This document shows positions 22,920 to 59,635 of a stretch of 64,000 bases of DNA, piece by piece. Numbering within the stretch: the first letter of the stretch is position 1; each line of letters begins with the position of its first letter. The position numbers and the translations under genes were made by a program. This stretch comes from Octopus vulgaris (lineage: Eukaryota), in the NCBI GenBank assembly GCA_951406725.2, contig OX597818.1:124930001-124994000 (forward strand), given 5' to 3'. The notes under the pieces are model-generated. The model had not been told where the DNA came from, searched no databases, and saw nothing but the letters and a program-made list of their open reading frames with translations.

Positions 22920-23036
22920 GCTTATGGCCATATCACCTTGGAAGCAGCAGTTCTCATCTGATCAAAGTTAAACAATACCAAGCCTTGTTAATACTTAAAT
23001 GCATGACTGCTTGGGAAACTTAGGTGCTGTAAACAT
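22920..23036 (+). pseudogene. 5S rRNA pseudogene (near full length)
   Basis: gcttatggccatatcaccttggaagcagcagttctcatctgatc-aaagttaaac...gttaatactt...gactgcttgggaa...ggtgctgtaaacat aligns colinearly with animal 5S rRNA, with many CpG-type transitions. A truncated duplicate is at 21592-21664. Confidence 0.8.
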
Positions 23037-41690: not shown

Positions 41691-41863
41691 AGTTTAAAAA
41701 GTTTGAGAAGCACTGAGTCTGTTGAACAACTTCATGCATTTGTAACCTTTATTTGAAAAGTATGAGTAAAATCTAACTATTATTATTATTAATTATTATT
41801 AATTATTATTATTAATAATATTTGATATTAATTTTTTTTTTTTTTTTCAGATATTGAGTCACA

Positions 41864-42874
41864 ATGAGCAAACGTAAAAATCCTAATACCGAGAATCTGA
41901 ATTCAGATTTCTGTGACTTTCTGATGGAGCTTGCCAATTATGAGAAGAATGTTACACGTGCCCTGCACAAGTACAATGTCTATCGAAAAGCTGCTGGTCT
42001 TCTTGCTAAACATCCTACGAGGATTAAGAGTGGAGAAGAAGCAAAGAGACTGAATGGTATTGGAGATAAAATTGCTAAAAAAATTGATGAATTCATTCGT
42101 ACGGGGCAACTTGAGAAGTTGAATAAAATCAGAGCTGATGACACCAGCATGGCAATCAATGAGTTGACCAAAGTATCTGGAATAGGTCCAGCTGCAGCAG
42201 CAAACTTTGCCAAAGATGGCATAAAAGATATCGAAGACCTCAGGAAGATCACTGATAAACTGAACCATCATCAGAAAATTGGTGTGAAACATTTTGAAGA
42301 CTTTGAACTGAGAATTCCTCGTGAAGAAATAACCAGTTTACGAGACGTAATATTGGCAGGGATCCAAAAAGTCGACTCCAAATACACAGCTAAAGTTTGT
42401 GGAAGTTACAGAAGAGGGGCCACTTCTTCTGGAGATATTGACGTTTTGTTAACACATCCAGATTACGTCGCTACAGATAAGAAGAAACCCGAGTTGCTGA
42501 AGGCAGTGGTAAAACATCTCACTGATAAAGGTTTGGTAACCGACACTATCTCTATGGGGGACTCGAAGTTTATGGGGGTATGTCGGCTTCCAGAGGACGA
42601 CAAAGCAATCAAGCGACGTTACCGAAGATTTGATCTCCGTTTGATCCCCCACGACCAGTATTATTGTGCGCTACTTTATTTCACCGGCAGTGATATGTTT
42701 AATAAAGACATGCGAGGTCGTGCTTTGGAAAATGGGTTTACACTTAATGAATACTGCATTCGGCCAATGGGGAGTACAGGGATTCCAGGTGAATCTCTGC
42801 CTGTGACTTCCGAAGAAGATATCTTTGATTATATTGGAATGAGATTTAAGAAACCATCAGAACGTAATTTATAA
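41864..42874 (+). CDS. POLB: DNA polymerase beta (X family), single coding exon
   Basis: 336 aa. N-terminus MSKRK, lyase Hh[31 protein letters not shown] (D190/D192 equivalents), RRFDLR (D256), YFTGS, FNKDMR and TLNEY. Acceptor poly-T-CAG ends at 41850; AATAAA at 43087. Confidence 0.97.
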
Positions 42875-55810: not shown

Positions 55811-56496
55811 TACGACAGGCTTCTTTCAGTTTCCGTCTACCAAATCCACTCACAAGGCATTGGTCGGCCGGGGGCTATAGCAGAAGACACTTGCCCAAGA
55901 TGCCACGCAGTGGGACTGAACCCGGAACCATGTGGTTAGTTAGCAAGCTACTTACCACACAGCCATATATATGTAATTAAAAAAGTTCAAACGGGGAATT
56001 ATTCTATTCAATGTCTTTCTGTTAGAAATGTTTAGATCTTTAGCTGGTATTTTTAGCATAACGAGTTTTCTGGTGACAGCTTCATTGCCTGCTGCTTCAG
56101 TAGAAATCTACGGTCGCACAAACGCACAAAACTGGGAAAATGAAACAAATAAGGACGACTTGTTCCGAAACACACCCGAGTGGGGAACGGTCTTCAAAAG
56201 TAACCCTCAATTGCTTTCCCCCAAAATTCCTATGTTGTCGGAATCTATATAGTCCGAGGTATATTTGTAGAAAATTTCATTAAAAAATATCTATTTTCTT
56301 GAAAGTTAAGACGAATTGAATTGGACGCCGGTGAATTCCCCACCTCACCCCTCCTAAAACACTTTTCCTCAAGGGTTTTGTATATTCGGAATCTACATGA
56401 TATAACACATTTTCGTAGAAAATTTCATTAAAAAATATCCATGTTTCTGAAAGTTATGATCATCCAAAATCGGTGTGGGGCAAGAATCTGTAGTTA
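55107..56496. mobile_element. Long-TIR fold-back DNA element (~390-bp arms) with nested family A SINE (55518-55965)
   Basis: ataactacagattc...cgttttctgcgttt (55107-55500) is inverted at ~56120-56496. The arms contain a duplicated ~130-170-bp submodule. Confidence 0.8.
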
Positions 56497-58446: not shown

Positions 58447-59006
58447 AGGAGGTTGGCCAAAAGTCCCCTGACAGTAAATCAAAACTATCTAATTCCAAGA
58501 TTTATCTATGCTTAACAATTGAATGAATTTAATAAAAGCATCTAAGTATGAGTGGTTGTATACTGTCAACTTAACGTGACAGTCCTGTAAGGGAATTACA
58601 CCACTGCTGTTTAGCCCTAGGAAGCATCAACGCTTCCTGTTGGCCTTGACACATTTCCTCTGTCCTTATATATTTACGAAGGGGAGACAAACACTCCCAA
58701 CAGCTAGGCCTGCATCTAGAGACATGCATGTTTCTGGGTCTTGCCCATCATCAGTCTAGAGTAGCAGAGGCCTGCTAGCTGAAGATATCTGTCTAGACTT
58801 CGTAAATATATCGCTCCACCACTGTACATATCTCTGTGAGATATTTAGAAATTTAATATTTCTGATCTAAATATGAAACATCATGAAAATAGTTCAAACT
58901 GAAGTCCTTCTTGAGCGACACATTTTTCCATTTGAGCCAATACTGAATTACAGATAGCATTTATGGAGTTTTGATTTACTGTCGGGTGACTTTTGGCCAA
59001 CCCTTG
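58447..59006. mobile_element. Tc1/mariner-type MITE
   Basis: ~40-bp TIRs ggttggccaaaagtc(c/a)cc(t/c)gacagtaaatcaaaact at 58447-58486 and 58967-59006, with TA-rich flanks. Confidence 0.8.
58715..58760 (-). ncRNA. Canonical minimal type I hammerhead ribozyme
   Basis: Minus strand: tctaga CTGATGA tggg-caaga-ccca GAA ACATGCATGT C tctaga. GUC cleavage site between 58721 and 58720. Stem I extends imperfectly to 58668/58811. Confidence 0.88.
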
Positions 59007-59635
59007 ATATATATCATCATCATCATCATCATCATCGTTTAATGTCCATACTAGTATGAGTTGGAAGGTTTAACAGGATCTGGCCAGGTAGGAGCCTGCA
59101 CCATACTTTGGTGTCTGTTTTTGGCATGGTTTTTACGGCTGGATGCCCTTCCTCTCACCAACCACCCCGCAGTACATGTTTCAGTAATTTGATTGCGGCC
59201 ATACTGGAGCACCACCTTGAAAGGTTTTAGTGAAACAAATCGACCCCAAGACTTATTTTTTTTAAAGCCCAGTACTTATTCTGTCAGTTTCTTTTGCCCA
59301 ACCGCTAAGCTATGGGAACATAAACACACCAAAACCAGTTGTCAAGTGGTGATGGGAGGACAAACACAGGCTCATAGATATATACACACACACATATATA
59401 CATATATGTATAAAATAAAATACAGAAGGGTATTGAAATACCACTTACTATAAACAGAGCTATCACTCTAAACCACAATTTACTCACTATAAAAATAGTT
59501 CTGTTCATAACAAGTGGTATTTCAATACCCTTTTGTATTTTATTTATGTTTTACCTATAAATGTTTAAAATTGCTATTATTAACTCTATTATTAACATTA
59601 TTATTAATAATGTTAGTGATATTTATTTAAATTTA

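What the first reader, a model, noticed from the sequence alone, without database searches (positions are those of the whole stretch)
58668..58811. Intact canonical hammerhead at the tip of a ~145-nt rod inside a Tc1/mariner MITE
Seen: on the minus strand every core nucleotide is canonical (CUGAUGA, GAAA, GUC). Stem III is the palindrome ACAUGCAUGU. Stem I continues through ggcct, cagctag and atatatttacgaag/cttcgtaaatatat pairings. The unit lies between 40-bp DNA-transposon TIRs (58447-59006). Established: animal minimal HHRs are usually linked to PLEs and retrozymes rather than cut-and-paste DNA elements. Inference: this is either a nested PLE/retrozyme remnant or a ribozyme-carrying MITE family.
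Basis: partly seen in the sequence, partly recalled or inferred. Interest (0 to 1): 0.78.

Follow-up and report, generated by a model that had tools for sequence, protein, structure and literature searches.

The report
Retrozyme copy nested inside a MITE
The hammerhead ribozyme motif is real, but it belongs to a separate family of roughly 350-base mobile repeats (hundreds of copies), one of which landed inside an ordinary miniature DNA transposon, and whose copy ends suggest they are likely pasted in by Penelope-type retrotransposon enzymes from a likely circular RNA.

Summary
The type I hammerhead, the 144-nt rod and the TIRs are all there. The 'ribozyme-carrying MITE' reading fails. 0 of 38 other MITE loci (33 places) hold the segment, and the 313-nt insert (58552-58864) sits between a 12-bp target duplication present once in empty MITEs. 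The insert is a dispersed, non-coding, circularly permuted 345-366-nt family (291 hammerhead matches, 784 matches to a 3' motif), in at least four subfamilies with compensatory changes in stem I and the rod: a non-LTR retrozyme. Its copies carry a Penelope-type footprint. 105 of 127 segments end at two fixed sites 57-58 nt apart. 23 of 35 inverted two-armed insertions use one site per arm, as does this copy. 48 segments read through the cleavage site and 17 exceed one unit, so the template was circular or an uncleaved multimer. Cleavage and expression were not shown; stem III predicts dimer-dependent cleavage. No partner element was matched. The scan earlier noted similar inverted hammerhead insertions in other genomes. 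Verdict: new member of a known kind, nested by chance, with useful mechanistic evidence.

The parts
58448..58551 (.). Left part of a ~233-bp TA-flanked Tc1/mariner-type MITE (TIR from 58448), ending in the first copy of the target duplication
58540..58551 (+). Target-site duplication, left copy, ATCTAAGTATGA (11 of 12 identical to the right copy; single in empty MITEs)
58552..58811 (-). Retrozyme arm 1: hammerhead rod plus downstream hairpins, 5'-truncated in the TA-rich segment, 3' end at family end site A (2-nt overlap with the target, 58550-58551); 94-97% identical to the closest copies
58668..58811 (-). 144-nt rod (extended stem I), conserved by compensatory change in four subfamilies
58715..58760 (-). 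Canonical-type type I hammerhead: 6-bp stem I, core CUGAUGA/GAAA/GUC, stem II with 5-nt loop, palindromic stem III; predicted cut 58721/58720
58809..58864 (+). Retrozyme arm 2 (inverted): the 'tail' between end sites A and B, 3' end at site B (2-nt overlap with the target, 58865-58866); joined to arm 1 through a 3-nt overlap at 58809-58811
58865..58876 (+). Target-site duplication, right copy, ATCTAAATATGA
58865..59005 (.). Right part of the MITE with right TIR

Best explanation
This is a single copy of a dispersed, non-coding 345-366-nt hammerhead repeat family (a non-LTR retrozyme) inserted with a 12-bp target duplication into an unrelated MITE, likely by the enzymes of a Penelope-like element copying a likely circular RNA. 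Shown: nesting, family, circular permutation, conserved fold, two fixed 3' end sites, one site per arm, read-through of the cut site and of more than one unit. Inferred steps: a tandem source locus is transcribed; two hammerheads pair through their palindromic stem III and cut out unit-length RNA, which is ligated to a circle; a PLE protein binds the hairpin-rich head, nicks both strands of AT-rich DNA about 7-14 nt apart, and primes reverse transcription on one strand at site A and on the other at site B; the two cDNAs are joined head to head by microhomology. This copy has one hammerhead and only part of the unit, so it is likely a dead end.
For: Nesting: 0 of 38 other MITE loci (33 places) match the unit; TSD 11/12 and single in empty copies; MITE parts match other copies at about 82-93%, the insert matches its family at 94-97%. 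Family: 133 and 291 hammerhead matches, 784 for a 3' motif, reversed controls 0. Circular permutation: units of 333-366 nt cut from copies longer than one unit; L165 and L184 are direct dimers with two hammerhead motifs. Selection on fold: four stem I versions UCUAGA/UCUAGA, CCUGGA/UUCAGG, CCUGAA/UUCAGG, CCUGGG/CUCAGG; stem I 95% of cells paired, 41 double changes, 0/500 shuffles (related sequences, so not a probability); 14 of 42 rod pairs with double changes in 17 copies; circular units fold alike, z -6.7 to -11.7 against 30 shuffles. PLE footprint: of 127 segments at 77 places, 61 end at A, 44 at B, 22 elsewhere, where the two windows cover about 8% of the unit; of 35 adjacent inverted pairs 23 are A+B, 1 B+B, 0 A+A, 11 with one arm unclassified. 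TSDs: 10 of 26 non-simple-repeat matches against 36 of 650 mismatched controls. This matches the two adjacent internal RT start sites, both-strand priming and AT-rich nicking shown for a PLE protein (PMC11167929). Intact RT+GIY-YIG ORFs exist in the genome: 16 of 150 scored hits have a 781-aa frame.
Against: No partner matched: the unit shows no real similarity to 29 Poseidon-like RT loci or 30 GIY-YIG loci. The tail here is 57-58 nt, longer than the 30-40 bp described (PMC8557442, PMC11167929). No long tandem array was seen, only dimers and inverted pairs. 5' ends do not pile up at the cut site (3 of 127 within 6 nt), so there is no genomic trace of cleaved linear templates; that fits a circle but equally an uncleaved multimer. 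In vitro only 1 of 9 predicted Xenopus retrozyme dimers cleaved (bioRxiv 10.64898/2026.07.22.740005). Cleavage, ligation and expression were not tested here. One more insertion into the same MITE family was found (L066), a little more than chance suggests.
Confidence: 0.82

Rival explanations
1. Same family and same PLE-type copying, but the template is an uncleaved linear multimeric transcript, and the hammerhead is kept for another step or cuts rarely. This rival concerns only the template step.
For: Read-through of the cut site (48 of 127 segments) and copies over one unit (17 of 127) need only a tandem RNA. For the anole PLE, ribozyme-dead RNA inserted equally well and no RNA-seq reads began or ended at the cut site (PMC11167929). 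Monomer stem III is unstable.
Against: The largest direct arrays seen are about two units (L184 741 nt, L165), yet copies begin in every register; the unit folds as a closed circle-like structure conserved across four subfamilies; related mollusc, coral and axolotl retrozymes accumulate as circles (PMC7229834).
Confidence: 0.35
2. The insert is the truncated terminal repeat (pLTR plus tail) of an autonomous Penelope-like element that I did not find, not a free-standing retrozyme.
For: Inverted arms, tail, AT-rich targets and TSDs are PLE features (PMC8557442). An earlier scan note (e1-7908855) resolved a similar insert this way in another genome. PLE families here are many and only top hits were scored.
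Against: The roughly 22 segments that run far enough upstream all continue into the unit's own tail and body, none into coding sequence. No collinear upstream flank is shared among 35 single-arm places. No PLE ORF was found beside a hammerhead in the loci scanned, except L029, where the unit interrupts a PLE remnant with its own 7-bp duplication. The PLE families found carry different, short-stem-III motifs. The motif is of the canonical retrozyme type, not the minimal PLE type (PMC4209133).
Confidence: 0.1
3. A Tc1/mariner MITE family carries the ribozyme as regular cargo.
For: The motif lies between intact TIRs. A second MITE copy also holds this repeat family (L066).
Against: 0 of 38 other MITE loci hold it. 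Only 1 place among 176 family loci scanned has TIRs, and there the insert is at a different site of the MITE, in the opposite orientation and with one arm: an independent insertion. The insert has its own TSD.
Confidence: 0.02

Closest known systems
Metazoan non-LTR retrozymes (Cervera and de la Pena 2020, PMC7229834), especially the 350-390-bp mussel repeats and axolotl Rtz_353
   Same: Non-coding unit of 345-366 nt, canonical type I hammerhead, low GC, long TSDs, self-paired circular fold, co-existence with PLEs; a weak base of stem II as in HHR_Amex2.
   Different: Here mostly dispersed, truncated, inverted two-armed copies and at most dimers seen; no circRNA shown; fixed PLE-type end sites are not described in the parts of that paper I read.
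EN+ Penelope-like element insertions with inverted pLTR and tail (PMC8557442; mechanism PMC11167929)
   Same: Two adjacent 3' end sites, site A in an AC-rich stretch, inverted 5'-truncated arm, AT-rich and (TA)n targets, read-through of the hammerhead site.
   Different: No ORF; upstream sequence loops back into the unit; tail 57-58 nt rather than 30-40; canonical rather than minimal hammerhead.
Vertebrate non-LTR retrozymes as PLE derivatives (bioRxiv 10.64898/2026.07.22.740005)
   Same: Same proposed parent and mobiliser; dimers with two motifs meet their definition.
   Different: Their support is co-occurrence and pLTR similarity; here no pLTR match was found, but the insertion footprint points to PLE enzymes.
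Tc1/mariner MITEs
   Same: Host element of about 233 bp, CAG...CTG termini, TA on both sides in 17 of 26 complete copies.
   Different: Matching transposase not found (0 of 30 Tc1 loci carry this TIR); has no part in the ribozyme.

Membership tests
Type I hammerhead ribozyme | Core C3-U-G-A-N-G-A9, G12-A-A, A15.1-U16.1, H17 with three helices, stem I open | tested here: met
   stem I covariation
Type I hammerhead ribozyme | G10.1-C11.1 directly closing the core | tested here: inconclusive
   An extra U/A (U.U or C.A in other copies) lies between core and the G-C pair; extra bases at this place are described (PMC4209133, PMC7229834 passages)
Type I hammerhead ribozyme | Rfam hammerhead model match | tested here: not met
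   the descriptor scan does find it
Type I hammerhead ribozyme | Self-cleavage | not testable with these tools
   needs in vitro assay, monomer and dimer
Non-LTR retrozyme | Non-coding repeat unit of about 150-450 nt with one canonical type I HHR | tested here: met
   units 333-366 nt
Non-LTR retrozyme | Direct tandem copies with two or more motifs | tested here: met
   L165, L184; not at this locus; no long arrays seen
Non-LTR retrozyme | TSD longer than 4 bp, no LTR | tested here: met
   12 bp here; 10 of 26 vs 36 of 650 controls
Non-LTR retrozyme | Expressed as linear and circular RNA | not testable with these tools
   no run on record as RNA, contigs only
Penelope-like element (autonomous) | RT plus GIY-YIG ORF linked to the repeat | tested here: not met
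Penelope-like element (mobilised by) | Two adjacent RT start sites (tail), inverted arm, AT-rich target | tested here: met
Penelope-like element (mobilised by) | Sequence shared with a partner's pLTR or tail | tested here: inconclusive
   none in 59 PLE loci, top hits of two searches only
Tc1/mariner MITE (host) | TIRs, TA duplication, short non-coding multi-copy | tested here: met
Tc1/mariner MITE (host) | Transposase element with the same TIR | tested here: inconclusive
   0 of 30 loci; a similar but different TIR start occurs 4 times
Ribozyme-carrying MITE family | Most MITE copies hold the hammerhead segment | tested here: not met
   0 of 38 loci

The most novel reading that the evidence does not exclude
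The family is a viroid-sized circular RNA that has kept only a hammerhead rod and a two-site Penelope priming signal, and its insertions record a PLE reverse transcriptase starting at two fixed points on the circle, one for each DNA strand, and rolling on past the ribozyme site for up to two turns: a direct genomic footprint that retrozyme circles are copied by PLE enzymes.
Probability: 0.5. Interest if true: 0.6.

Novelty: new member of a known kind. Interest (0 to 1): 0.37.

Why it matters
The nesting itself is ordinary. The family is useful because what mobilises animal retrozymes is still a suggestion in the papers I read (PLEs as 'strong candidate', PMC7229834 discussion; co-occurrence and pLTR similarity, bioRxiv 10.64898/2026.07.22.740005). 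Here a retrozyme shows the tail signature that was traced biochemically to PLE reverse transcription (PMC11167929), with strict pairing of the two sites across the two arms, and the same genome holds intact PLE reading frames. That gives a small defined RNA, two predicted start sites and candidate enzymes for a direct test of whether a circle serves as template.

Tried and rejected
Rfam at gathering and at E<=10: no hammerhead family. Expression: no RNA holder listed; the runs laid were contigs of unrecorded type, gave no start or end sites, and are no evidence either way. Whether the orthologous site is empty in other samples: contigs over the unique flank stop inside the TIR at 58479, so undecided. 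Partner search: 29 Poseidon-like loci and 30 GIY-YIG loci, no match beyond TA repeats and one 27-nt hammerhead-like stretch. A PLE-specific Pfam accession that I recalled is not in the library. Hammerhead pairs 4-6 kb apart (L091, L092) are not PLE bodies; the DNA between holds simple repeats or LINE-like frames. Pile-up of 5' ends at the cut site: not seen (3 of 127). Single-molecule twin priming as a general rule: in this copy arm 2 stops exactly at site A, but in most two-armed copies the arms overlap widely; partner arms are closer than other copies (median 94.8% vs 90.8%) but are the closest in only 6 of 32, so one versus two templates is undecided. Transposase for the MITE: not found. 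Alignment A1 misaligns stems II and III of one subfamily, so only stem I was counted on it. Chance match: rejected.

Full report
Observation. The minus strand carries a type I hammerhead: stem I UCUAGA (58760-58755), CUGAUGA, stem II UGGG-CAAGA-CCCA, GAAA, the palindrome ACAUGCAUGU, C17 at 58721 and UCUAGA (58720-58715). It caps a long rod (z -4.27). It is the only descriptor hit in the window, and 100 shuffles gave none at that stringency. Rfam does not detect it. The shape is the canonical metazoan one: helix I 6 bp, helix II about 4 bp, short helix III with a palindromic loop that needs a second copy (PMC4209133, passages). Folding agrees: monomer stem III has probability 0.01, while the palindrome forms a -13.3 kcal/mol duplex between two copies. 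The TIRs are real.

The MITE is empty elsewhere. The window lies at G000:C5:124930001-124994000 in a 2.8-Gb genome; its size and repeats suggest a cephalopod, which is my inference and untested. The TIR pattern has 383 matches. In the 29 other loci from that search, similarity stops at or before 58551 and resumes at or after 58865. With 9 more loci, 0 of 38 loci (33 distinct places) match the insert's family. Of 26 complete copies, 23 are 212-239 bp, the others being the window copy and two with other inserts, and 17 have TA on both sides. The 12-mer that occurs once in empty copies occurs twice in the window (58540-58551 and 58865-58876, 11 of 12 identical). So 58552-58864 is a later insertion with a target duplication.

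The insert is a family of its own. A search with 58447-59006 scored 40 of 5389 candidates; apart from the window, the matches cover only the insert, none a TIR. Pattern counts are 133 (window core, at most 1 mismatch), 291 (two positions free) and 784 (a 3' motif), with reversed controls at 0; these are lower bounds. Copies longer than one unit give monomers of 333-366 nt in which the segment after the tail leads back into the rod; L165 and L184 are direct dimers with two motifs. At least four subfamilies differ in stem I (UCUAGA/UCUAGA, CCUGGA/UUCAGG, CCUGAA/UUCAGG, CCUGGG/CUCAGG), and one also in stem II (GAG/CUC) and in the palindrome (ACAUAUGU). On 53 of the 79 motif rows (I dropped near-identical rows, two chimeric rows, one truncated row and one false hit) stem I is 95% paired with 41 double changes, above all 500 shuffles and all slid controls; the sequences are related, so this reflects a few events. 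In 17 rods, 14 of 42 predicted pairs show a double change. Units folded as circles give the same plan, a rod with the hammerhead at one tip and a head of hairpins at the other (65-67% paired, z -6.7 to -11.7 against 30 shuffles). This matches the non-LTR retrozymes of PMC7229834 (parts 2 and 3, the discussion and passages read), whose mussel member is 350-390 bp.

How copies land. I mapped 77 places taken from the first 100 listed matches of the 3' motif (zero mismatches, contigs C1-C5; four places already held, the window among them, were left out). Of 127 segments, 61 end at site A, 44 at site B 57-58 nt further on, and 22 elsewhere (several of these by false extension into TA repeats); the two windows cover about 8% of the unit. 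36 places are two arms head to head with 3' ends outward. Of the 35 adjacent pairs, 23 are A+B, 1 B+B, 0 A+A and 11 have one unclassified arm. 48 segments cross the cleavage site, 17 exceed 370 nt (longest 741), and only 3 begin within 6 nt of the cut. Of 26 two-armed insertions with both ends located (9 were not), 10 have a non-simple-repeat duplication (one is TA-rich), 10 sit in simple repeats and 6 show none; mismatched flanks match in 36 of 650. The window copy is of this kind: arm 1 on the minus strand ends at A, arm 2 on the plus strand is the tail and ends at B, each overlaps the target by 2 nt, and they join through 3 shared bases. Loose ends at 58550 in three other runs agree with site A.

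Mechanism. A purified PLE protein nicks AT-rich DNA on both strands and starts reverse transcription at two adjacent internal sites of its RNA; the sequence between them is the genomic tail; ribozyme cleavage is not needed (PMC11167929, parts 1 and 2 of 4 read). Inverted arms, tails and (TA)n bias are PLE traits (PMC8557442, passages). The family's footprint fits this, so PLE enzymes are the likely mobiliser. Since upstream sequence loops back into the unit, the template was a circle or an uncut multimer; I favour a circle at about 0.55-0.6, from the conserved closed fold, the lack of long arrays among the loci seen and the behaviour of relatives. The genome has candidates: 16 of 150 scored GIY-YIG hits lie in a 781-aa frame with RT and GIY-YIG domains, a C-x4-C-x2-C linker and TA-repeat 3' flanks, i.e. 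Neptune-like, and there is a decayed Poseidon-like family with its own hammerhead. Neither shares sequence with the unit, so the partner is open.

Against and unexplained. Cleavage and expression are unshown; no RNA holder was listed. Only 1 of 9 predicted frog retrozyme dimers cleaved in vitro (bioRxiv 10.64898/2026.07.22.740005, parts 1-3 of 5 read; its supplements are closed and may list relevant species). The tail is longer than published ones. One other family copy sits in the same MITE family (L066), at another site, in the other orientation and single-armed; by my rough estimate one such hit in about 150 places is somewhat more than chance, perhaps through shared preference for AT-rich DNA.

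Novelty. Searches for hammerhead with MITE, retrozyme with octopus, Penelope-like with hammerhead and cephalopod, Penelope with hammerhead and twin priming (0 papers) and retrozyme with tail, Penelope and target site duplication listed no description of this family or of a two-site PLE footprint on a retrozyme; I saw those as listings, the library lacks most subscription papers, and repeat databases were not available. The scan has no note on this sequence but two notes on inverted hammerhead insertions in other genomes. Verdict: a new member of a known kind, nested in a MITE by chance; interest 0.37, carried by the insertion footprint and not by the nesting.

Noticed in passing
L066:1281-1776 (G000:C2, near 196184422): A second, independent insertion of the same retrozyme subfamily into another copy of the same MITE family, different site and orientation.
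   Followed up: partly
L279:1245-3587 (G000:C16) and 15 more hits: Young, intact Neptune-like Penelope family: 781-aa RT+GIY-YIG frame, ends at TA repeats, with a degenerate hammerhead-like motif (UUGAUAA in place of CUGAUGA) near its 3' end.
   Followed up: partly
L097-L125: Decayed Poseidon-like PLE family; 9 motif hits in 7 of 29 loci share a different hammerhead with a long stem II and minimal stem III.
   Followed up: partly
L029:1496-1767: A retrozyme copy interrupts a PLE RT remnant with a 7-bp duplication; nesting, not linkage.
   Followed up: yes
window 41858-42874 (+): Uninterrupted 338-aa frame with all DNA polymerase beta domains; an intronless pol beta gene or retrocopy.
   Followed up: partly
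window 22920-23035 (+): Diverged 5S rRNA-like sequence, 49 bits, probably a pseudogene or SINE head.
   Followed up: no
window 59413-59545: Another small element with 51-nt inverted arms (90%) and a 31-nt spacer, likely a different MITE.
   Followed up: no
window 56205-56459: Two 107-nt direct repeats 148 nt apart, 71% identical.
   Followed up: no
L147:1483-1548: One family copy stops at the hammerhead cleavage triplet and runs into TA-rich flank; a single case, could be priming at a cleaved 3' end.
   Followed up: no
L164, L167, L179: Three segments end just before the hammerhead core (unit positions 312-323), a possible minor third end site.
   Followed up: no
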